Virus record (IMG/VR): IMGVR_UViG_2531839662_000038
Length of the DNA stretch: 45,855 nt
Direction: 5' to 3' (one strand)
Source of the DNA: a virus
Taxonomy: Duplodnaviria > Heunggongvirae > Uroviricota > Caudoviricetes
Part shown: piece by piece, positions 6,047-36,319 of the stretch
Numbering within the stretch: the stretch's first letter is position 1
How the letters are laid out: each line of letters opens with the position of its first letter
Translations under genes and position numbers: made by a program
Notes under the pieces: model-generated
Databases searched by the model: none
What the model was told of the DNA's origin: nothing
The model's input: only the letters and a program-made list of their open reading frames with translations

Positions 6047-6723
6047 GCTGCGTTTTCCTTAATTTGATGAACATTATTGATGCCGTAGTAATCACAAACA
6101 GTGGCATCGACGAAAGAGAGATCGTTATCAATCTCATTGGAGTCAAACATTCCCATTGGGGATTTAACAGTGTCTGCACCGTTGTTTTTTGTGGTGAAAA
6201 AGAACTGGTCATCACGGGTAAGGGTGCGAAGAACTATAGTAAACATGCCTTCGACAGTGATTTTCTCGTCCAGCATTTTGCCGATAGTTTTCATTTTCAC
6301 GCGCCCCATAGGGGTTTCTTCGGTGTGTGCAAGAAAATAGACTCTCAGGTCATCAGGTGCATCCTGTGCAGCCTTAATCACCTCCCATGCGTGGCGGCCT
6401 ATCTCAGTAAATTTATCAAACGATTTTTCTTCTGAGCGGCGCATAAACTCATTGCTCATCACATACTGGAAGTCATCAACAATAACGATTCTTTTCCCGT
6501 ATTCGTGAGCACGCTTAATTACGGCAACTATTACGTCCCATTTGTCAGTGGTAACTACGGTTCCTTTTTTTGCTCTGGCATCCCATGCAAGCCAGTCTTT
6601 TGATTTAAATGGTAGCGGCTTGCCTATTGGTTTTATAAGTATTGCTTCCTCTGGATTGATATTTCTCATGCTGGTTGATTTTCCGGTGCCAGATTCACCG
6701 AGTATTAATGTCGCAGTTCCCAT
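6043..6723 (-). CDS. sak4: Sak4-type RecA-like single-strand annealing ATPase
   Basis: 226-aa ORF; Walker A GESGTGKST and Walker B IVIVDD; occupies the position of lambda Red genes. Confidence 0.7.
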   Translation of the reverse strand: MGTATLILGESGTGKSTSMRNINPEEAILIKPIGKPLPFKSKDWLAWDARAKKGTVVTTDKWDVIVAVIKRAHEYGKRIVIVDDFQYVMSNEFMRRSEEKSFDKFTEIGRHAWEVIKAAQDAPDDLRVYFLAHTEETPMGRVKMKTIGKMLDEKITVEGMFTIVLRTLTRDDQFFFTTKNNGADTVKSPMGMFDSNEIDNDLSFVDATVCDYYGINNVHQIKENAA

Positions 6724-6731
6724 AATTTGCC

Positions 6732-6932
6732 TCAGAATGGTAATTCGGATGGGACGGAAAGAAATTCGCGCTCATTCATGCGCTCTCTTTGAGCCTGCCA
6801 TAAACAAAGTTGTTTCTTTGATTTATCTCCCGCTTTACGCCAGTAACGAGCCTCAGCAATGTGATATTCTCTTTTTAATCGACTTAATTCTGGAGTTTTC
6901 GCCAGTTCTACCGGAATCATTTTGACCTCCAT
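6732..6932 (-). CDS. Hypothetical small protein
   Basis: 66-aa ORF between Sak4 and kil. Confidence 0.4.
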   Translation of the reverse strand: MEVKMIPVELAKTPELSRLKREYHIAEARYWRKAGDKSKKQLCLWQAQRERMNEREFLSVPSELPF

Positions 6933-7030
6933 TTTCTGTAGGCTTCGATGGCCTCACGAAACATCTTTTCATCGCCAATAAAAGTGGCGATAGTGAATTT
7001 AGTCTGGATAGCCATAAGTGTTTGATCCAT
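6917..7030 (-). CDS. kil: Kil-like host-killing protein
   Basis: ORF 6917..7156 contains MDQTLMAIQTKFTIATFIGDEKMFREAIEAYRKWRSK, recognised as lambda-Kil-like; overlaps cIII by about 30 nt in another frame as in lambda; start codon uncertain. Confidence 0.55.
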   Translation of the reverse strand: MDQTLMAIQTKFTIATFIGDEKMFREAIEAYRKWRSK

Positions 7031-7163
7031 TTTTTGGGACTCCTGGCTGATTAAGTACGTCGATGAGTCGTTTCCATCCGTCACGTAATTTGCGGGTGAT
7101 TCGTTCAAGTAAAGATTCGGAAGGGCAGCCAGCAACAGGCCACCCTGCAATGGCATATTGCAT
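6999..7163 (-). CDS. cIII: CIII, inhibitor of FtsH (stabilises CII)
   Basis: Internal 54-aa segment MQYAIAGWPVAGCPSESLLERITRKLRDGWKRLIDVLNQPGVPKNGSNTYGYPD within ORF 6999..7223, recognised as lambda CIII. Confidence 0.9.
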   Translation of the reverse strand: MQYAIAGWPVAGCPSESLLERITRKLRDGWKRLIDVLNQPGVPKNGSNTYGYPD

Positions 7164-7223
7164 GGTGTGCTCCTTATTTATACATAACGAAAACGCCTCG
7201 AGTGAAGCGTTATTGGTATGCAT

Positions 7224-7251
7224 ATAAAAAGGCCCTCACACTGGAGGGCAA
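7224..7251 (-). terminator. Intrinsic terminator between N and cIII (tL1-like)
   Basis: Plus-strand GCCCTC-ACACTG-GAGGGC preceded by AAAA, i.e. hairpin plus U-run on the minus strand. Confidence 0.45.
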
Positions 7252-7466
7252 AGAAGATTTCCAATAATCAGAACAAGTCGGCTCCTGTTTAGTTACGAGC
7301 GACATTGCTCCGTGTATTCACTCGTTGGAATGAATACACAGTGCAGTGTTTATTCGTATGCCTGTCTTTTAACCACATCAGGCTCGGTGGTTCTCGTGTA
7401 CCCCTACAGCGAGAAATCGGATAAACTCTATTCACCCCCTACAGAGAGAATGATGGAGATTCACCG

Positions 7467-8006
7467 ATGAGTAACTGGTGGCAGGAACTATTACGTTTCT
7501 TCCTGCGTGGTCTTACGCTACAACAGTTAATTCATATGCTTATTATTTTAATTGCCTTGATAATAATCACCCCTGCATCAATTAAAGAGTGGGTAGATAT
7601 AAGGAACCCAGAAATACTTCCAGATCACTGGATGTATTACGCAATGCTTTTGTGTATCAGTTATGTTCTGAACAGGGTGATGGAGTTTATATTTCTGGCA
7701 TCTTCAGACAGATATAAAAAATATCTCAGTAAGAGAGATGAGGCTAAAGTAATTGTGGAGACTGAGCGCCTGTTCAATTCTCTGAGTATTCAGGAAAAAG
7801 AGGTTTTAGCATTTGCTGTTATGGCAAATAACAAAATCGTACTTAAGCACGGCGATCCGGTCGCTTTATCTCTTATGAGAAAAGGCCTTCTCCATCGCTC
7901 AGGTGTGACTTACAGCGCGTCAGGTAAAGAGAAATTTGTTATACCTGACGTCTGGTTCCATGAGTGTTATATGCGCTTTGCTGGTAAAGCTGATGAGCTA
8001 ATTTAG
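7467..8006 (+). CDS. sieB: Superinfection exclusion protein B-like membrane protein
   Basis: 179-aa ORF with two predicted transmembrane helices; located between cIII and N on the opposite strand, as sieB is in lambda/P22; good Shine-Dalgarno context. Confidence 0.5.
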   Translation: MSNWWQELLRFFLRGLTLQQLIHMLIILIALIIITPASIKEWVDIRNPEILPDHWMYYAMLLCISYVLNRVMEFIFLASSDRYKKYLSKRDEAKVIVETERLFNSLSIQEKEVLAFAVMANNKIVLKHGDPVALSLMRKGLLHRSGVTYSASGKEKFVIPDVWFHECYMRFAGKADELI

Positions 8007-8027
8007 TTCCTCGACGGCGGGGGATCG

Positions 8028-8300
8028 TCACCTCGCCGTCAGTTGTTTTGATTTCCGGTAGCCTGCCGCGTAAATAGCTACGTTCGGAAGACAAGTTGAA
8101 CCTTCATATTTTCTGGTCAACGTTGTCAGTGTTATTACTTCTGCTCTCATTGCTGGTTTGCGCTTGCATTGCAAGACCACTCGTGAGGGGGTTGGCCTGT
8201 GTAGCTTGTCGGAGCTAATCGACTCCTGACTTTGCAGATTTGCGCGACGAGCTCTACGGCGAGAAGCTGCGGTGCCTTTAAATTCTGTTTTTCTGGACAT
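8028..8300 (-). CDS. N: N-type antitermination protein (P22 gene 24 / phage 21 N family)
   Basis: 90 aa from MSRKTEFKGTAASRRRARRANLQ (arginine-rich motif); C-terminus VAIYAAGYRKSKQLTAR matches remembered P22 gp24 end; GGAGG Shine-Dalgarno before ATG at 8300. Confidence 0.75.
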   Translation of the reverse strand: MSRKTEFKGTAASRRRARRANLQSQESISSDKLHRPTPSRVVLQCKRKPAMRAEVITLTTLTRKYEGSTCLPNVAIYAAGYRKSKQLTAR

Positions 8301-8325
8301 AGATTCCTCCCGAATAAACTCTGGC

Positions 8326-8373
8326 GATGCAATCCCGAAGCTACTCCTGAGAGGGTTGCTTCGGCATTGCATC
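8326..8373 (-). promoter_or_regulatory. Long hairpin in the N leader (RNase III processing site-like)
   Basis: 16-bp inverted repeat with one mismatch (GATGCAATCCCGAAGC / GCTTCGGCATTGCATC) between nutL and the N start. Confidence 0.5.
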
Positions 8374-8417
8374 CCACAGCTTATGTGGTTGGGTGATCTG
8401 GCTTTTCAGCCACGTAG

Positions 8418-8446
8418 TCGAGTGTTCGACGTTGTTTAAAGAGCCT
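8418..8446 (-). promoter_or_regulatory. nutL: nutL candidate (boxA-like GGCTCTTTAAACAAC plus short boxB-like hairpin TCGAACACTCGA on the minus strand)
   Basis: boxA-like CGCTCTT-type motif on the transcribed strand upstream of N; the same architecture recurs at 10932..10959 (nutR). Confidence 0.45.
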
Positions 8447-8479
8447 GCCAGTCTGTTCCGTTTGGCTTACAGCGTCCTG

Positions 8480-8540
8480 CTGATGAGTTAACTTTATCGA
8501 AATGATAAATTAATGGCAATAGCAAAATGATAAATTGTTT
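8480..8540. promoter_or_regulatory. OL/pL operator-promoter region
   Basis: Palindrome TTTATCGAAATGATAAA (8493..8509) and second ATGATAAAT site (8527..8535); same half-site family as in OR. Confidence 0.5.
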
Positions 8541-8711
8541 TAGTTTTCAAATATCCTGTTGATTATTATGGTTTTTTATTTGATTGCAGGAATTTATCAG
8601 AAGGAATAAAGAGACTTGAGGGGGATCAGAATTGCGCGTTTTAGTGAGTTGTATCTGTTTATTTTTCAACAAATACAATCGATTATGTGTTTTTAGGTGG
8701 GCGAACGTTGG

Positions 8712-8740
8712 GCAAAGAAAACCCGGCACTGAGGCCGGGT
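8712..8740 (-). terminator. Intrinsic terminator ending the cI-linked leftward operon
   Basis: Plus-strand AAAGAAAA then CCCGGC-ACTGAG-GCCGGG, i.e. GC hairpin plus U-run on the minus strand, 5 nt after the ORF-B stop. Confidence 0.6.
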
Positions 8741-8745
8741 GTGTA

Positions 8746-9429
8746 TTAGGGGGTTGAGACTCCAGAGAGCAATCCGTAGATTTTATATACAGCAAATGCT
8801 AATGCTGGCAAGCCAAGGGCCCATTTGATTATATCAAGCTTAACATCACTAAGCTTACCTTCTAACTTTGCCTCTTGAACAGAAAGAGCTGCATCGATCT
8901 TTTTTGATTGGGAGTCAAGGGCACTCTCAATTCTACTCGATTGTATGTCCAGACGACTGTTGATTTGTTCGTGCTGAGTAACAACTAAATGCTTCATCTC
9001 CTTTATATCTGAAGCCATTAGTTCACGCCATTTGGCCATATCAGCCTGCATTTTTGAGGCCACTGCATCCACTTCAGCTTTATTTGCCTTCAGAAGTGCC
9101 TGTATTTCGTTTCTGCTCAAATCGGACATTGCGGTTCCCTGTATAGGAGTTTCCTCGTACGGTGGGATAACATTAGATTGTCCTTTACAATCGGCAACCC
9201 CTCCTTTATCTACGATTGTAGCAGTTAGCTGGGAATTGGTCGCATCATCCACCATGTTTTTTGGTGAATAAGAGGAAATAGGCGTAGAAAACAGATTACC
9301 TTTTGCTGTTTCCATGAACATCATGAAATCGCGAGTATTAACGTTATTCAGGGAAACTTGCAGTGGTTTAACAATACTTGATGTTTTGTAAGTAATAGTT
9401 AAATCACCTACTTCTTCCGGTTGTTGCAT
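8746..9429 (-). CDS. Unrecognised coiled-coil protein with C-terminal hydrophobic helix (ORF-B of the cI-linked cassette)
   Basis: 227-aa ORF; extended heptad-like region (EIQALLKANKAEVDAVASKMQADMAKWRELM...) and C-terminal WALGLPALAFAVYKIYGLL; start overlaps ORF-A stop (TAATG). Confidence 0.6.
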   Translation of the reverse strand: MQQPEEVGDLTITYKTSSIVKPLQVSLNNVNTRDFMMFMETAKGNLFSTPISSYSPKNMVDDATNSQLTATIVDKGGVADCKGQSNVIPPYEETPIQGTAMSDLSRNEIQALLKANKAEVDAVASKMQADMAKWRELMASDIKEMKHLVVTQHEQINSRLDIQSSRIESALDSQSKKIDAALSVQEAKLEGKLSDVKLDIIKWALGLPALAFAVYKIYGLLSGVSTP

Positions 9430-9872: not shown

Positions 9873-10577
9873 TCACAAACTTTTCAGCCACTCCCTTGCC
9901 TCGATGTCATCCAGATGACGAGATTGCTTCAGAATACCAGCCACATACTCCACCTTTGCTACTTGATGATAAGGTAACGTTATTGGCCTGTGGTCCTGGT
10001 TGATGCTTGTAAATTGGTATTCTCCATCTCTGTCATAGCCAAGAATCTTGATCATGTTGTGTCCTTCAACGGTTCTGACAAACACCTCATCCCCCGGGAA
10101 TACTTTGGTGTTAGGCTCAATGAGTACATATTCTCCTGATTTTATTCTGGGCCACATGCTGTCTCCTTTCACACGAAGACCAAAGGCATCTGGATCATCA
10201 CTATAAATCTTGAGCCACCCATCGCGCTCTTCGGTCATCTCGATGGCACCATCAACACCAAGAATTGCCTCACCAACCACGCGCACTAACCCTTTTCTTA
10301 CCTGACCGACAAAAGTTAAAGAATCTGAGCATGATGCAATTGGTGTTACATCATGTACCAAATCAAGCCACCCATTAGGTAACCCAAGTGCGGCTTCGAA
10401 TTTTCTTGCTAGTTTATCCCCTATGTTTCGAGTGCTTTTTTCACCGGAGACTTGCGTGAGTTGAGAAGGGCTAACTCCAAGCTTATCGGCAAAGCTTGCA
10501 TTAGTGTTACCCGCGATTTTTTTATGCTCATCTAGCAAAAACGCCAGATTCGATTTGCGAATATCTTTGTTTTCCAT
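9873..10577 (-). CDS. cI: CI-type prophage repressor (N-terminal HTH, C-terminal LexA-like S24 autopeptidase)
   Basis: 234-aa ORF; HTH region FADKLGVSPSQLTQVSG; S24 motifs GDSM and a downstream Lys; divergent from the cro-like gene across an operator region. Confidence 0.8.
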   Translation of the reverse strand: MENKDIRKSNLAFLLDEHKKIAGNTNASFADKLGVSPSQLTQVSGEKSTRNIGDKLARKFEAALGLPNGWLDLVHDVTPIASCSDSLTFVGQVRKGLVRVVGEAILGVDGAIEMTEERDGWLKIYSDDPDAFGLRVKGDSMWPRIKSGEYVLIEPNTKVFPGDEVFVRTVEGHNMIKILGYDRDGEYQFTSINQDHRPITLPYHQVAKVEYVAGILKQSRHLDDIEAREWLKSL

Positions 10578-10599
10578 CCCACGATTCTCCCTCTATTTA

Positions 10600-29450: not shown

Positions 29451-30869
29451 ATGCCGATTCAGCAACTTCCGCTTATGAAAGGTGTCGGCAAAGACTTTAG
29501 AAACGCCGACTATATCGACTATCTGCCAGTGAATATGTTGGCTACACCCAAAGAAATCCTGAACAGCAGCGGATATCTTCGCTCATTCCCGGGCATTGCC
29601 AAACGTTCTGATGTGAACGGCGTATCGCGCGGAGTTGAGTACAACATGGCGCAGAGTGCTGTTTATCGCGTGTGTGGCGGCAAGCTGTACAAAGGAGAAA
29701 GTGAAGTCGGTGATGTTGCCGGAAGTGGTCGTGTATCAATGGCGCATGGTCGGACATCTCAGGCTGTAGGCGTTAATGGCCAACTGGTCGAGTATCGTTA
29801 TGATGGCACGGTTAAAGCAGTCTCAAACTGGCCTACAGACAGCGGATTCACGCAGTATGAGTTAGGTTCTGTTCGTGACATTACGCGCTTACGCGGGCGT
29901 TATGCGTGGTCAAAAGACGGCACTGATTCATGGTTTATCACTGACCTTGAAGACGAATCGCATCCTGACCGCTACAGCGCACAATATCGCGCAGAATCGC
30001 AGCCGGACGGTATCCTCGGCATCGGCACATGGCGAGACTTCATCGTCTGCTTTGGTTCATCGACGATTGAATATTTCTCCCTGACTGGTGCAACCACCGT
30101 TGGTGCAGCTTTGTATGTCGCACAGCCATCACTGATGGTGCAAAAAGGCATCGCCGGGACTTACTGCAAAACGCCGTTTGCTGATTCCTATGCGTTTATC
30201 AGCAATCCGGCAACAGGTGCGCCGTCTGTGTATATCATCGGCTCCGGTCAGGTATCACCAATCGCCAGCGCGAGCATTGAGAAAATACTACGCTCCTACA
30301 CTGCTGATGAACTGGCTGATGGCGTGATGGAGTCTCTGCGATTTGATGCGCATGAGCTGCTGATTATCCATCTTCCGCGCCATGTCCTCGTATACGACGC
30401 ATCTTCAAGCGCCAATGGTCCGCAATGGTGTGTGCTGAAAACTGGCTTGTATGACGATGTGTACCGCGCTATCGACTTCATTTACGAAGGCAATCAGATA
30501 ACGTGCGGAGATAAGCTGGAGTTCGTGACCGGGAAATTGCAGTTCGATATCAGCAGCCAGTACGACAAGCAACAGGAACACCTGCTGTTTACTCCGTTGT
30601 TCAAAGCAGATAACGCCAGAGTTTTCGACCTTGAAGTTGAATCTTCAACTGGCGTTGCGCAGTACGCTGACCGCCTGTTCCTATCGGCAACCACTGACGG
30701 CATCAATTACGGACGTGAGCAGATGATTGAGCAGAATGAACCGTTCGTTTACGACAAACGCGTTTTGTGGAAGCGAGTAGGGCGCATCAGGAAAAATGTT
30801 GGCTTCAAATTGCGCGTTATCACGAAGTCTCCTGTCACTCTGTCTGGCGCTCAGATAAGGATTGAGTAA
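29451..30869 (+). CDS. Tail hub / DNA stabilisation protein (P22 gene 10 type)
   Basis: 472-aa [52 protein letters not shown]... close to P22 gp10. Confidence 0.9.
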
Positions 30870-32729: not shown

Positions 32730-34196
32730 ATGGCTACTTGGCAAGGATCAAATGGCGGATTATTGGCTGGTATCGGCGGCGTCAACTCAAACGCTCCGAA
32801 CGTAAATGACATCGGCAATACGCTTCAGTTTATCAGGCAGAACAATGATATTGAGCGTTCAGGCGCTAACAATGTTGGGCTGACTGCTTTGCAAGGCCTT
32901 TCAGGTATTGCGGGGGTGTTTCAGCAGGAAAAGCAGGCTCAGCGGCAGAAAGAATTTCAGCAGGCATACGCTAATGCTTATGCGTCTGGTGATCGCGGTG
33001 CTTTGCGTCAGTTGGCTACTCAATATCCAGACCAGATTGAATCCGTTCGTAAAGGCATGGGATTCATTGATGAAGACCAACGCAATTCTATCGGCACCTT
33101 AGCGGCTGGCGCACGCCTTGCGGCCTCGTCTCCAGAAGCAATGCAATCATGGCTGCAAAACAACGCCAATGAGCTGGCGCGCGTCGGTGTTGACCCTAAT
33201 AACGTTGCTCAGATGTATCAGCAGAATCCTTCAGGATTTGGTGAGTTTGTTGATCACCTTGGGATGGCTGCTCTCGGTCCGATTGACTACTTCAATGTTC
33301 AGGACAAGATGGCTGGTCGTGAGATTGACCGAGGCAGGCTGGCAGAGACAATCCGCAGCAATCAGGCCGGAGAAGCACTTCAGGCGAGAGGGCAGGATAT
33401 TAGCCGAGCAAATGCGTTAACGTCAGCATATGCACCAACAGCCGCAATGCAGAATTACAATCAGTACGCGCAAATGTTAAAGGCAGATCCAGATGGTGCA
33501 GCGGCATTTGCGGCAGCGGCGGGAATTAATCCCAATGCTAAGAAATTACTTAAGGTTGAAACCAATCCTGATGGATCGGTAACTAAGTATTACACCGATG
33601 GCAGCGAGGAAGCCGGAAAACTAAACCAACCTATATCTGGTGATGGCATTAAACCAATTAGCTTGCCACAAGCGCAAAGCATCATAGATAAGGCTAATGA
33701 GGGTTCCAAGAAGGCGGCAGGATTTGCTTTGCGATTAAAAGATTCAATGGACTCAATGAATCAGCTTAGTAAAAGCATTGACCCTAAGCGAGTTGCATTA
33801 ATAAATCGCTCTCTTGGTGATGGGACTATTGCAAATTTAAGCCTATCACCAGCGGAGCAGCAATATATGGTAAATGCGAGAGACGCCTTGTATGCAATTT
33901 TGCGCCCAGAAACAGGTGCAGCAATTACTCTGCCAGAGATGCAGGAGTATTCCAAAATGTACCTGCCTCAGCCCGGTGATTCCAAGGCTGCTACTGAAAC
34001 AAAAATGCGAAAAATGCAGGGCCAATATAACTCATTACGTGGTCAGTCTGGTCGCGTTTATGATGCTTTGGTGGTTTCAAGTGCTGCAAATAGTCAACAA
34101 CAGAGCAATAGCCAACAACCGACAAATACCCAACAGCAGCAGAGTCAATCCGGATCATATACCTCAAAATCAGGCATTCAATTTACGGTGGAATGA
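32730..34196 (+). CDS. Ejection protein (P22 gene 20 type)
   Basis: 488-aa ORF; position. Confidence 0.75.
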
Positions 34197-36319
34197 TGAA
34201 AGTAACTGCAAACGGTAAGACATTTACCTTCCCTGATGGTACGAGCACGGAAGATATTGGCACCGCCATTGATGAGTATTTTGCTGGTCAGGCTGTTCAG
34301 CAACAAACAGTTAATCAGGCCAATAATGCACCAACACGGGAAGAACCATCATTAATGCAACAAGCTGGCGATTGGCTCACTGGTGGTCAAAGTGCAGGGC
34401 AAATTGCAGAACAGGCTGGTCGTGGTCTGGTAAACATACCATTTGACGTATTGCAGGGTGGCGCAAGTCTGATTAATGCAATCAGTCAGGGGCTTGGTGG
34501 GCCAAAAGTATTGGATGATGTCTATCGTCCAGTCGATCGACCGACAGACCCTTATGCGCAAGCTGGAGAAACAATTGGCGGGTATCTCCTGCCAATTGGC
34601 ACAGCGGCAAAAGTTGCTGGAGCGCCAGCAAAGCTCGCAGGAGACATCGGTTCCGCAGGAAACATGATTGCAGGTTCTCTTGCTGATGCTGCAAATCAGG
34701 AGGGTGATTTTGCACAAAATGCTGCCATTAACGGTGGTATCAATATTGGTGCTCAAGGCGTTCTTTCAGGTGTCGGGCGCGTTATTGCGCCAAGGGTTTC
34801 ACAGGCTCTTGGTGGTGCAGCACTGAATTCTGCTAATGAAGTTTCTAGGATGGCAAAGTCAGGTGCTGGGCGTCAGTCAATTGCCAGTCAGGCCGCTAAT
34901 GTGTCCGAAGATGTAGCAAAAGCGGCTGAGTCTGCTGGAATTGATATAAACGCATTAACACCAGGAATGCGATCTGGAAGTCGTGGAATTGCACAAGCCG
35001 AAGGCGCATTGGCATCAACACCTGGAATTGTTCAGGACGCCCATCAGGCAGCATTTAACGAAATATCATCAAAGTTAAGTCGAAACCTTGATGAATTTGG
35101 GGCCACATCTGGAACGGCATCAGAAAAAAGTGCGGCTATAAAACAAAGGATTCTTCAAAATCTTGATCAGATGAAGGATGCCGAGCGCGCGGCATGGGAT
35201 GACGTGCGGTCAACAATGCCAAATCAAAAAGCAAGAATGCTAAATGGTAATGCCGTTATTCAGGCAGAGCGATCTGCTGGCATACCGCTTACTCCTGAAA
35301 TGAAACAGTTTGTTCAGGCAAACAATCAAGGTGGAGTAACATTTGATGGCATGAAAGCATGGAGAGCGAAATTTGCTGATGCGGAGCAAAAATATAAGCG
35401 TAGCGGAGAGGCAAATGCGGCAAGGAGAGCAGGGGAAATACGCCGGGCAATTACTGATGATATGCGCACAATGGCGGAAAACGGCGGATTTCTTGATGAC
35501 TGGCAGAAAGCTAATGATCTGTCTAAAGCGAGGTTATCAGCACAAGAGAGTGCAGAGTCTGTTTTCGGGCGTGATTTGGCAACAGATGCACTGATTACGA
35601 ATGGAGTAAAATCCCTTCAATCATCGTCAGCTAAAGGTCTTAATGGTCCTGCTGGATTCCATTCTATGATCCGCGCGCTGCCAGAATCAGAGCGTGTTCC
35701 TGCTATATCATCAATGTTGCAAGATGCTATCTCGCATGGTGTACGTGGTGGCAAAGCTGATGCAGCAGGAATTAACCATATCGCAGAGATACTGACTCCA
35801 CAAAATGTAAAAGCCATTAGCCGATATTCCTCAGAGCTTGGAAGAATTGCTGATGCATATGGCACTCTTGCAAGAGCAGCAGTGAAACCTCAGCAGTATA
35901 TTGAAAGAACAGGTAGAACTGCCAATGTACTACGCGATCTGGATGCTGGTTTATCCAACGTCACATCAACAGTGTTAAATGCAATTGCCAATTCAACATC
36001 AGGTGCCATTGTTGGTGGCGCTGGAGGAGGCATTGCAGGCGCTGCCGCAGGTGCTTTAGTTGGCGCTGGGTTAAAAGGCGCTGTATCTAAAATTGCCACC
36101 ACACGTAGTGGTCGGTATGCGATAGAGAAAGCGGTTCAGGAAGCAACTAAAGCAGTAAGAGCAGGCGGAAGCAAAGAAGCATTAGCGGCGGCGGAACGCA
36201 GATTTATGGCAAATAAGGCCGCCGTAAAAGCAATACGCGAGGCACTAGGAAACGAAGAGTTCCAGCGTTTAGCAAGGGCTGGAATTGTGGCATCGCTAAG
36301 CGGAATGGCACAGGAGTAA
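34193..36319 (+). CDS. Ejection protein (P22 gene 16 type)
   Basis: 708-aa ORF; position; Gly/Ala-rich repeats. Confidence 0.75.

What the first reader, a model, noticed from the sequence alone, without database searches (positions are those of the whole stretch)
7300..7466. Palindrome and direct repeats upstream of sieB
A 9-bp inverted repeat (GTGTATTCA ... TGAATACAC, 7312..7339) and a duplicated CCCCTACAG(C/A)GAG motif (about 7402..7448) precede the sieB start. These may be its promoter or operator, or a small structured RNA between tL1 and sieB.
Basis: seen in the sequence. Interest (0 to 1): 0.2.

Follow-up and report, generated by a model that had tools for sequence, protein, structure and literature searches.

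The report
sieB promoter/antisense cassette plus PreS hairpin
The palindrome and the repeats are real, but they belong to two phage control elements that are already described: a hairpin just in front of the small RNA PreS on the opposite strand, and the promoter and antisense-RNA region that controls the superinfection-exclusion gene sieB.

Summary
Both observations are confirmed and are far beyond chance. They are unrelated to each other and lie in two separately mobile modules of a lambdoid early-left (pL) operon, which runs on the minus strand.

(1) The palindrome at 7312-7339 extends to 7302-7349. It is an RNA hairpin of the leftward pL transcript and ends 1 nt before the 5' end of the homologue of lambda sRNA PreS/LPR1 (7310 to about 7224, ending at terminator tL2a). 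Four unrelated hairpin sequences occupy exactly this position in other phages. All are more stable on the leftward strand. The hairpin is probably a processing or boundary signal for PreS, not a sieB operator.

(2) The two CCCCTACAG(C/A)GAGAA copies bracket the sieB promoter as mapped in P22. This gives -35 at 7397-7402, -10 at 7422-7427 and the RNA start at 7434. Copy 2 forms the first bases of sieB mRNA. On the leftward RNA, which is the P22 sas antisense RNA region, copy 1 forms a hairpin capped by GGGG.

This cassette occurs in prophages across Enterobacterales, upstream of varied genes. The two copies change together there. I infer that the antisense hairpin recognises the mRNA 5' end.

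The elements are known, but two details appear undescribed: the hairpin that always flanks PreS, and the repeats that co-vary.

The parts
7302..7349 (-). Extended imperfect palindrome that forms an RNA hairpin in the leftward pL transcript. The conserved upper stem is 7312-7323 paired with 7328-7339 (12 bp, loop CAAC). The lower stem, 7302-7311 with 7340-7349, is specific to the lambda/window subtype.
   Evidence: Searches show four unrelated hairpin sequences at the same position in other phages.
7224..7310 (-). Homologue of lambda sRNA PreS/LPR1, about 87 nt. The seed region is 7258-7275.
   Evidence: 131 of 134 bases identical to lambda 33923-34056. The 5' end and seed come from primers P810, P969, P970 and P971 of the PreS preprint.
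7222..7249 (-). tL2a-type intrinsic terminator that forms the PreS 3' end. The stem is 7249..7232, followed by CUUUUUAUAU.
   Evidence: Terminator scan. HK620 annotates this stretch as tL2A. The preprint states that the LPR1 3' end is tL2a.
7192..7211 (-). tL2b-type hairpin upstream of cIII. It is context only. ea10 and ral are absent here, so tL2a abuts tL2b.
7360..7390 (.). Invariant start of the sieB cassette: GCCTG(7360-7364)...CAGGC(7379-7383) stem, then GGTGG (7386-7390). It is the likely 3' structure of the sas-type antisense RNA. In single-unit cassettes it supplies the -35 and the extended -10.
   Evidence: Rac carries a compensatory variant.
7391..7415 (-). SL1, a 10-bp hairpin with a GGGG tetraloop on the leftward RNA. 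It contains the complement of direct-repeat copy 1 (7401-7415).
   Evidence: It is more stable on the antisense strand and the stems covary.
7397..7427 (+). sieB promoter: -35 TGTACC at 7397-7402, a 19-nt spacer, and -10 TAAACT at 7422-7427.
   Evidence: Aligned to the P22 promoter feature 29690..29720 of BK000583. The T, A and final T of the -10 are invariant in 40 diverse cassettes.
7434..7466 (+). sieB 5' UTR. The inferred RNA start is A7434. Direct-repeat copy 2 is 7436-7450 and the Shine-Dalgarno GGAG is 7455-7458.
   Evidence: The P22 'sieB RNA start site' at 29727 aligns here. The fold leaves the first 14 nt unpaired.
7467..8006 (+). sieB (179 aa). The in-frame Met24 codon at 7536-7538 corresponds to the P22 esc start.
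   Evidence: esc at 29830 in BK000583.
7359..7471 (-). Region homologous to the P22 sas antisense RNA. The exact ends in this phage are unknown.
   Evidence: The P22A-sas sequence and coordinates match the reverse complement. Identity to P22 is 90.7% over 118 nt.

Best explanation
The 167-bp stretch is a junction of two independent, conserved RNA-control modules of a lambdoid pL operon, which is transcribed leftward on the minus strand.

Module A (7222-7355) holds the palindrome, the PreS sRNA and terminator tL2a. On the leftward transcript the palindrome folds into a 12-bp hairpin, extendable to 22 bp, whose 3' base lies 1 nt before the PreS 5' end. I infer that it is the structural signal that fixes where PreS is cut out of the long pL transcript. 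It may also leave a protective 3' hairpin on the upstream fragment. RNase III acting on the extended stem, or RNase E cutting at the foot of the hairpin, are the candidate enzymes.

Module B (7359-7466) is the sieB promoter and leader on the plus strand, and the sas-type antisense RNA on the minus strand. Repeat copy 2 forms the first bases of sieB mRNA. On the leftward RNA, the complement of copy 1 is the 5' arm and GGGG loop of a hairpin (SL1). Because the two copies are the same, that loop and arm are complementary to the mRNA 5' end. I infer that this is the recognition loop through which leftward (lytic, pL-derived) RNA pairs with sieB mRNA. In P22 that pairing blocks SieB translation while the internal Esc start stays in use.

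Shown here: the homology, the positions, structural conservation specific to the leftward strand, and the co-variation of the repeats. Inferred: the processing role, the enzyme, and the loop-to-5'-end recognition.
For: Context:
- N-like gene at 8300-8031(-), sieB at 7467(+) and cIII at 7163-6999(-).
- Rfam finds the lambda cIII thermoregulator at 7118-7176(-).

Mosaic structure:
- Window 7222-7355 matches lambda 33923-34056 (131/134).
- Window 7359-7444 matches lambda 34396-34480 (82/86).
- ea10 and ral are missing between and beside these pieces.

Palindrome and PreS:
- PreS/LPR1 lies between ea10 and ral, is about 88 nt, ends at tL2a, binds Hfq and is seen only in the lytic cycle.
- The cloning and deletion primers put its 5' end at GAGCAATGTCG, which is window 7310.
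- In 141 loci with 26 distinct upstream sequences, an 11-13 bp hairpin (dG -11 to -17, against -4.7 +/- 2.3 for shuffles) always ends within 2 nt of GAGCAAU, 1 nt before it in nearly all.
- Four unrelated stem sequences occur, and the loops vary.
- All types are more stable on the leftward strand, because they contain G.U pairs.
- The precursor fold has z = -5.4.

Repeats and the sieB promoter:
- P22 promoter, RNA start and esc features (BK000583) align to the window.
- The P22 sas sequence matches the reverse complement of 7359-7471.

The wider cassette:
- It is found in about 110 distinct sequences from many Enterobacterales.
- In 41 two-repeat versions the layout is copy 1, 9-12 nt, TAnnnT, 4-8 nt, copy 2.
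- The T, A and final T of the -10 are invariant.
- The copies co-vary across six motif types (permutation 0 of 5000).
- SL1 folds at -8.8 kcal/mol on the antisense strand, -5.2 on the sense strand and -1.9 when shuffled. Its GGGG loop is conserved and all four inner pairs show compensatory changes.
Against: - There are no transcript data for this phage.
- The lambda PreS 5' end is taken from primer design, not from nucleotide-level mapping, and the preprint says nothing about how that end arises.
- In the other subtypes the lower stem shrinks to 3-4 pairs (GCAC with GAGC, an A.A mismatch between), and types B-D have only 11-bp upper stems. That is short for a classical RNase III site.
- The MFE fold uses the PreS 5' end in an internal PreS helix, not in the lower stem.
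- I could not read the 1993 sas papers, so how sas is made (own promoter or pL processing) and its exact ends are not established here.
- The sas-region fold as a whole is not unusual (z = -1.6).
- The repeat copies have diverged in some Xenorhabdus cassettes (L148, L142, L214), so identity is not obligatory.
- The permutation test does not correct for phylogeny.
Confidence: 0.75

Rival explanations
1. The palindrome is a DNA operator. A dimeric phage or host protein binds it to regulate the neighbouring sieB promoter.
For: It is a 9-bp perfect inverted repeat with a 10-bp centre, about 85 bp upstream of the sieB -35 in this window.
Against: In lambda, ral and about 345 bp separate the palindrome from the sieB control region. 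It is always linked to PreS and tL2a instead. Other phages carry four unrelated sequences of the same hairpin size at the same nucleotide distance from PreS. Variation is in the loop or creates G.U pairs, which are tolerated only in leftward RNA. HK620-type phages carry the palindrome beside a different gene.
Confidence: 0.04
2. The palindrome is a transcription terminator or attenuator of the pL operon, or of a sieB-antisense transcript.
For: It is a stable hairpin (-14 to -24 kcal/mol) inside a region rich in terminators (7 terminator-like sites against 1.3 expected).
Against: No U-tract follows it on either strand, and the terminator scan did not call it. The real terminator, tL2a, lies 60 nt further on. 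PreS, whose start abuts the hairpin, is produced downstream of it.
Confidence: 0.06
3. The direct repeats are two binding sites for a DNA-binding regulator of the sieB promoter, either a repressor or an activator. That shared protein is why they co-vary.
For: One copy lies over the -35 and spacer, and the other at +2 to +16. The -35 is poor (TGTACC, 19-nt spacer), as in activator-dependent promoters. The two copies change together between clades.
Against: No candidate protein travels with the cassette, and the downstream genes differ. The spacing varies from 31 to 37 bp. The region around copy 1 shows compensatory and G.U changes that keep a hairpin only on the leftward RNA. That indicates selection at the RNA level.
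Confidence: 0.12
4. The repeats are only the trace of a tandem duplication of a promoter unit (-10, 6-7 nt, C-rich start). Their identity has no function.
For: Single-unit cassettes exist in which GGTGG-TATGCT reads as an extended -10 followed by a similar C-rich motif. In two-unit cassettes the upstream '-10' position has decayed (TTCTCG).
Against: Six different motif versions are each present in both copies. Within-locus identity exceeds between-locus identity (0 of 5000 permutations). Short 9-15-nt repeats 35 nt apart are unlikely to be homogenised by gene conversion; this last point is my inference.
Confidence: 0.1

Closest known systems
P22 sieB promoter, Esc internal start and sas antisense RNA (Ranade & Poteete 1993; features in GenBank BK000583; sas reads in PMC13397905)
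   Same: It sits in the same position, between the N/24 gene and the rest of pL, and has the same orientation. Identity is 90.7% over 118 nt. The -35, -10 and start nucleotide are the same. There is the same in-frame Met24 for Esc, and both repeat copies are present.
   Different: The SieB protein is a variant (179 aa; the N-terminus and leader after +17 differ). There is an extra C at the start of copy 2. The upstream neighbour is the PreS hairpin rather than ral. Nothing has been tested experimentally in this phage.
Lambda sRNA PreS (LPR1) with terminator tL2a (Silverman et al., bioRxiv 10.1101/2024.10.31.621285)
   Same: 131 of 134 bases are identical over the hairpin, the sRNA and the terminator. 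The 18-nt seed and the 5' end sequence are identical.
   Different: The flanking genes ea10 and ral are absent. The U-tract region differs at 3 positions. The preprint does not describe the upstream hairpin or how the 5' end is made.
RNase III processing hairpins of the lambda pL transcript (N-leader site; sib retroregulator downstream of int). From my own knowledge, not tested here.
   Same: It is a long imperfect duplex (22 bp with 2 mismatches and 2 G.U pairs) inside the N-antiterminated pL transcript. The putative cut lies next to an internal mismatch, about 13 bp from the loop.
   Different: No cleavage data exist. Only the 12-bp upper stem, plus 3-4 lower pairs, is conserved in other subtypes.
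Other cis-antisense RNAs of lambdoid phages (lambda OOP/cII, P22 sar/ant) and loop-initiated antisense pairing as in CopA/CopT. From my own knowledge.
   Same: A short structured antisense RNA is made in one developmental state and acts on the translation start region of an oppositely transcribed gene. A stem-loop presents complementary bases.
   Different: Here the proposed recognition loop is encoded 35 nt away from the site it would pair with. It works only because the sequence is duplicated. The cassette is portable and sits upstream of many unrelated genes.
KilS sRNA of the Rac prophage, E. coli K-12 (b4833; PMC8175672)
   Same: It is an Hfq-associated sRNA in the same slot: leftward, between sieB and the kil gene, ending at an intrinsic terminator.
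   Different: Its sequence is largely unrelated to PreS. It was reported to possibly have its own promoter.

Membership tests
PreS/LPR1 sRNA module | Sequence homology to lambda LPR1, including the 5' end GAGCAAUGUCG and the 18-nt seed | tested here: met
   131 of 134 identical to lambda 33923-34056. The primer-defined 5' end and seed are identical.
PreS/LPR1 sRNA module | 3' end formed by a GC-rich hairpin plus U-tract (tL2a) in the pL operon upstream of cIII | tested here: met
   Terminator-like site at 7249..7232 followed by CUUUUUAUAU. HK620 annotates it as tL2A. cIII lies downstream.
PreS/LPR1 sRNA module | Hfq binding, lytic-cycle expression and up-regulation of dnaN | not testable with these tools
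   Known for lambda only.
sieB promoter / sas antisense RNA | Homology to the P22 sas region and to the P22 promoter, with the -10 and RNA start aligned | tested here: met
   90.7% identity over 118 nt. The alignment is and the BK000583 features.
sieB promoter / sas antisense RNA | Downstream gene is sieB with an in-frame internal start (Esc) | tested here: met
   Pfam SieB, E=3e-20. Met24 at 7536 aligns with P22 esc at 29830.
sieB promoter / sas antisense RNA | A discrete antisense RNA of about 105 nt is made and switches translation from SieB to Esc | not testable with these tools
   Reported for P22 (summaries). The primary papers are not held in the library.
sigma-70 promoter | -10 hexamer TAnnnT at the right distance from the RNA start | tested here: met
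   TAAACT at 7422-7427, 6 nt before A7434. T1, A2 and T6 are invariant in 40 cassettes.
sigma-70 promoter | -35 hexamer close to TTGACA with a 16-18 nt spacer | tested here: not met
   TGTACC matches 3 of 6 positions and the spacer is 19 nt. The consensus scan found no promoter in 6900-8500. It is a weak or non-canonical promoter, yet it is the one annotated for P22.
RNase III processing site | About two turns (20 bp or more) of mostly paired RNA | tested here: inconclusive
   The window/lambda subtype has 22 positions with 2 mismatches and 2 G.U pairs. Other subtypes keep only 11-13 bp plus 3-4 lower pairs.
RNase III processing site | RNase III-dependent cleavage at the site | not testable with these tools
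   I found no data, and the PreS preprint does not mention RNases.
Rfam families | Match to any curated RNA family in 7224-7466 | tested here: not met
   cmscan at E up to 10 over 6500-9000 gave only Lambda_thermo at 7118-7176 and chance-level hits elsewhere.

The most novel reading that the evidence does not exclude
The sieB control region is one instance of a portable, two-strand cassette spread through prophages of Enterobacterales. One strand carries a weak promoter whose transcript begins with a C-rich motif. The other strand, read by the phage's early lytic operon, carries a hairpin capped by GGGG. Its loop and 5' arm are kept complementary to that mRNA 5' end by maintaining a second copy of the motif 31-37 nt upstream. 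The cassette would let any prophage-expressed accessory gene inserted against the pL operon be switched off, or re-programmed, as soon as the phage goes lytic. In parallel, the hairpin that always abuts PreS would be the signal that carves this Hfq sRNA out of the pL transcript.
Probability: 0.35. Interest if true: 0.6.

Novelty: new member of a known kind. Interest (0 to 1): 0.3.

Why it matters
For annotation, this stretch is present in 2,243 of 5,426 complete E. coli genomes. RefSeq annotates nothing there but sieB. It should carry PreS, tL2a, the sieB promoter and the sas region.

For biology, two testable ideas follow. The first concerns how PreS is cut from the pL transcript: an invariant-position hairpin whose sequence is free to change. 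PreS is the lambda sRNA that boosts the host DNA polymerase sliding clamp (dnaN). The second is that the sieB/sas arrangement is a general promoter-plus-antisense cassette, used by many prophages to control lysogen-expressed accessory genes during the switch to lytic growth. Neither idea changes the basic picture of lambdoid regulation.

Tried and rejected
- Rfam at a permissive threshold found no family for the palindrome, PreS or sas.
- The consensus promoter scan found nothing in 6900-8500 on either strand. It also misses the annotated P22-type sieB promoter, so this negative result says little.
- I looked by eye for a promoter that would start PreS at 7310. No -10-like hexamer is shared by the four hairpin types, so I rejected that idea.
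- I looked by eye for a leftward promoter inside the sieB 5' coding region that could start sas. Nothing convincing turned up, and this is left open.
- The small ORFs across the region (7312-7470 +, 7305-7424 +, 7289-7435 -) span independent mosaic joints and are not treated as genes.
- RNAalifold on a MAFFT alignment of the antisense cassette recovered only SL0, because indels shift the SL1 arms. I replaced it with per-sequence folds and with pair counts on the four inner SL1 pairs.
- The SL0 stem and the possible pseudoknot pairs (CCAC/GUGG) never vary in my set. Most of those sequences were collected with a pattern that fixes those bases, so this says nothing either way. Only Rac (GCCCGG/CCGGGC) and L189 (a G.U pair on the antisense strand) are informative.
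- The 1993 papers of Ranade & Poteete are not held in the library.
- The literature search for tL2 terminators turned up the PreS preprint, but neither it nor the RNase III search found anything on pL processing sites.
- The long-range inverted repeats I2 and I3 were considered as sas helices. I3 is partly kept in P22, but I did not pursue them.

Full report
**1. The observation**

The sequence shows GTGTATTCA at 7312-7320 and TGAATACAC at 7331-7339. This is the only such pair in the 45.9-kb window, with none in 100 shuffles. The repeat finder extends it to 22-nt arms, 7302-7323 and 7328-7349, 82% complementary with a 4-nt gap. CCCCTACAG(C/A)GAG occurs twice, at 7401 and 7436, against 0.04 expected. 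As a 15-mer the copies agree at 14 of 15 positions and lie 35 nt apart. Both features are real and non-random.

**2. Context**

The window is the early-left region of a lambdoid phage, with pL transcription running leftward on the minus strand.
- An N-type antiterminator lies at 8300-8031(-).
- sieB lies at 7467-8006(+) (Pfam SieB, 3e-20).
- cIII lies at 7163-6999(-), and a Sak4-like ATPase lies further left.
- Rfam finds the lambda cIII thermoregulator at 7118-7176(-) and nothing between 7224 and 7466.
- Two intrinsic-terminator-like hairpins on the minus strand, 7249..7232 and 7211..7192, correspond to tL2A and tL2B as annotated in phage HK620.

**3. The stretch is a mosaic of three conserved joints**

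Against lambda:
- Window 7100-7221 matches lambda 33400-33522 (the cIII 5' end and tL2b).
- Window 7222-7355 matches lambda 33923-34056 (131/134), which is the ea10-ral intergenic region.
- Window 7359-7444 matches lambda 34396-34480 (82/86), which is the region just upstream of sieB.

The genes ea10 and ral are simply absent. Each piece occurs on its own in hundreds of phage records: 387 for the first module and 142 for the second. The palindrome and the direct repeats therefore belong to different modules, and are neighbours here only because ral is missing.

**4. The palindrome**

A 2024 preprint describes lambda sRNA LPR1, renamed PreS. It lies between ea10 and ral, is about 88 nt long and is processed to about 68 nt. 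It ends at tL2a, binds Hfq, is present only in the lytic cycle, and up-regulates host dnaN.

The preprint's cloning primer (P810) and deletion primers (P968-P971) give the 5' end as GAGCAATGTCGCTCG and an 18-nt seed. In the window these are 7310 (minus strand) and 7258-7275. The PreS homologue thus runs from 7310 to about 7224.

On this leftward RNA the palindrome folds as GUGUAUUCAUUC-CAAC-GAGUGAAUACAC. Its last base (7312) is 1 nt before the PreS start (precursor z = -5.4).

I collected 141 loci that contain the PreS 5' motif. They give 26 distinct upstream sequences.
- Every one has an 11-13 bp hairpin (dG -11 to -17 kcal/mol, against -4.7 +/- 2.3 for shuffles) that ends within 2 nt of GAGCAAU, 1 nt before it in nearly all.
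- Four stem sequences are unrelated to one another: the lambda type, the P22/L type ATAGCAGA.., the ST104 type AATGACCA.., and a fourth, AATGCGGA...
- Within the lambda type the loop varies (CAAC, CAGT, CAAT, CAGC, TTCT). The rare stem changes mostly create G.U pairs; one (L080) breaks a pair.
- All types are more stable on the leftward strand than on its complement.

This is the signature of a selected RNA structure in the pL transcript, not of a DNA operator for sieB. Three or four lower pairs (GCAC with GAGC, around an A.A mismatch) are also kept in all types. The full 22-bp duplex is specific to the lambda/window subtype.

The preprint does not mention this hairpin or how the 5' end arises.

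My inference is that the hairpin is the boundary or processing signal that defines the PreS 5' end. Three observations support this: PreS is lytic-only, no conserved promoter precedes it, and the hairpin keeps its position while its sequence changes freely. The enzyme is open. RNase III is plausible for the extended stem, with the cut next to the internal mismatch about 13 bp from the loop. That point rests on my own knowledge of RNase III sites such as the N-leader and sib. An RNase E cut at the foot of a hairpin is equally possible.

**5. The direct repeats**

The GenBank record BK000583 for P22 annotates three features:
- a sieB promoter at 29690..29720, TGTACC-19 nt-TAAACT;
- a "sieB RNA start site" at 29727, the A just before CCCCTACAG;
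- esc as an in-frame internal start.

Aligned to the window, these give -35 at 7397-7402, -10 at 7422-7427, the RNA start at 7434, the ATG at 7467 and Esc Met24 at 7536. Copy 1 (7401-7415) therefore overlaps the -35 hexamer and the spacer. Copy 2 (7436-7450) forms bases +3 to +17 of the mRNA.

The same DNA read leftward is the sas antisense RNA region of P22. A 2026 small-RNA study gives P22A-sas as AF217253 11387-11513, minus strand. Its sequence matches the reverse complement of window 7359-7471.

Reviews state that sas switches translation of sieB mRNA between SieB and Esc. From my own knowledge of the 1993 abstract, sas made by a superinfecting P22 blocks SieB but not Esc. I could not read the primary papers.

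**6. The cassette is widespread and its repeats co-vary**

A pattern taken from the invariant start of the module (CTTTTNNCCACNTCAGGCNNGGTGG) found 119 stretches among species-representative genomes. Together with the phage and viral loci fetched earlier, they give about 110 distinct cassette sequences. They come from Escherichia, Salmonella, Klebsiella, Enterobacter, Citrobacter, Serratia, Hafnia, Edwardsiella, Morganella, Proteus, Providencia, Photorhabdus, Xenorhabdus and others.

The plus-strand gene that follows varies: SieB types, HK620 hkaP types, and many small unrelated proteins. The flanks are mostly coded on the opposite strand, in 41 and 45 of 58 loci by a crude ORF count.

In 41 two-repeat versions the layout is constant: copy 1, 9-12 nt, TAnnnT, 4-8 nt, copy 2, Shine-Dalgarno, ATG. 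T1, A2 and T6 of the -10 are invariant in a 40-sequence alignment.

The motif differs between clades: CCCCTACAG, CCCCAACAA, TTCCACAGTCAA, CCCCAGCAA, CCCCCACAA and CCCCAGTRA. Both copies carry the same version. Within-locus identity exceeds between-locus identity in 5000 of 5000 permutations. That test is not corrected for phylogeny, and a few Xenorhabdus copies have diverged.

**7. Which strand is selected**

The segment around copy 1 folds at a mean of -8.8 kcal/mol on the leftward strand, -5.2 on the sieB-sense strand, and -1.9 when shuffled. On the leftward strand it is a 9-11 bp hairpin with a GGGG tetraloop, or GUGGAA in the Proteus/Xenorhabdus type. The stems differ between classes, with many G.U pairs. 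All four inner pairs show compensatory changes, and the covariation score was reached in 0 of 500 shuffles.

In the window this hairpin is UUCUCG-C-UGUA-GGGG-UACA-CGAGAA, from 7415 to 7391. The mRNA 5' end is predicted to be unpaired.

The structure is on the antisense RNA, and copy 1 equals copy 2. The loop and 5' arm of this hairpin are therefore complementary to the first 15 or so bases of the mRNA (9 contiguous pairs, one mismatch, then 5 pairs in the window).

My inference is that this is a recognition loop for the antisense RNA, which would explain why the copies must stay alike. A DNA-binding regulator or a neutral duplication are the alternatives. Both fit the strand asymmetry less well.

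**8. Mechanism in one line**

In the lysogen, the weak promoter at 7397-7427 makes sieB mRNA starting at 7434. When pL fires, leftward RNA crosses 7471 to 7302. Its sas part pairs with the sieB leader and shifts translation from SieB to Esc; this is known for P22 and inferred here. Further on, the hairpin marks where PreS is released, and PreS ends at tL2a (homology to lambda; the processing step is inferred).

**9. Comparison and novelty**

The elements are homologues of described ones: PreS/tL2a at 98% identity, and the P22 sieB promoter and sas region at 91%. All the sequence-level membership features are met; the functional ones cannot be tested here.

As a sigma-70 promoter it fails the -35 and spacer criteria, yet it is the annotated P22 promoter.

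I found no description of two things:
- (a) the hairpin that always abuts PreS, with fixed position and free sequence;
- (b) the portability of the cassette, the co-variation of its two repeats, and the GGGG hairpin on the antisense strand.

RefSeq annotates none of these RNAs, although the stretch is in 2,243 of 5,426 complete E. coli genomes.

Overall the finding is ordinary and already explained at its core. It carries two modest, testable additions.

Noticed in passing
L255 4406-4503 (E. coli K-12 MG1655 Rac prophage, NC_000913 1418405..1418502, minus strand): The annotated sRNA gene kilS lies between sieB and kilR, the same slot that PreS occupies in the window. It is an Hfq RIL-seq sRNA and is said to possibly have its own promoter (PMC8175672). 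Its sequence is largely unrelated to PreS, apart from a short stretch that resembles one arm of the palindrome.
   Followed up: partly
L255 4560-4680 (Rac, upstream of sieB): Rac carries a diverged copy of the sieB cassette. It has both anti-motif copies and an SL1 hairpin with a GGGG loop. Its first stem is GCCCGG..CCGGGC instead of GCCUG..CAGGC, a compensatory change, while CCACC..GGUGG is kept. Together with the A-rich linker, this fits a possible H-type pseudoknot at the 3' end of the antisense RNA.
   Followed up: partly
Loci L140, L144, L145, L150, L154, L157, L161, L167, L176, L253 and others (genome-contig hits): A single-unit form of the cassette exists. GGTGG+TATGCT reads as an extended -10 (TGnTAnnnT). 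A C-rich ..CTCACACAG motif follows 6-7 nt later, inside one stem-loop, and is followed directly by a Shine-Dalgarno sequence and the ATG of varied small genes (zinc-ribbon-like, MxxFxVRVEL.., MRGVVVHHEH..). The two-repeat form looks like this unit duplicated, with the upstream -10 decayed.
   Followed up: partly
L162, L163, L166, L174, L191, L197, L210, L245 (Nocardioides, Lacrimispora, Shewanella, Chromatium, Pseudomonas, Neobacillus, Oceanobacillus and other assemblies): Exact lambda sieB-region sequence (SieB MSIEMDPLVILGRVF...) appears on contigs of unrelated taxa, several of them short or of low coverage. This looks like lambda DNA contamination of those genome assemblies.
   Followed up: no
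L006 about 190-292 and L254 about 440-541 (P22, AF217253 about 10490-10591, minus strand): P22, ST104 and phage L carry an unannotated, longer PreS-like element of about 100 nt. It has the same 5' end GAGCAAUAUCGCUCG, a covarying middle helix (AACGAG/CUCGUU against AACAGG/CUUGUU in lambda) and a different terminator, and it lies just upstream of gene 17. It is not among the ten P22 small-RNA loci listed in PMC13397905.
   Followed up: partly
window 7221/7222 and 7355-7359: These are sharp mosaic joints. tL2a abuts tL2b with ea10 deleted, and the PreS hairpin abuts the sieB cassette with ral deleted. The same ea10-less joint is the commonest form among the IMG/VR loci (13 loci). A conserved linker, (C)GAATAA(A/G)CAC, precedes the hairpin in all subtypes even when the upstream gene differs.
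   Followed up: partly
window 8013-8040: A GC-rich hairpin (GACGGCGGGGGATCGTCACCTCGCCGTC, followed by a T-run on the plus strand) sits between the sieB stop codon (8004-8006) and the end of the convergent N-like gene, and overlaps that gene's last codons. It is probably the sieB terminator.
   Followed up: no
window 7619-7632 and 7838-7851 (minus strand): Two weak terminator-like hairpins lie inside sieB on the leftward strand. One of them may be the tL1 equivalent, because HK620 annotates tL1 inside its sieB-position gene.
   Followed up: no
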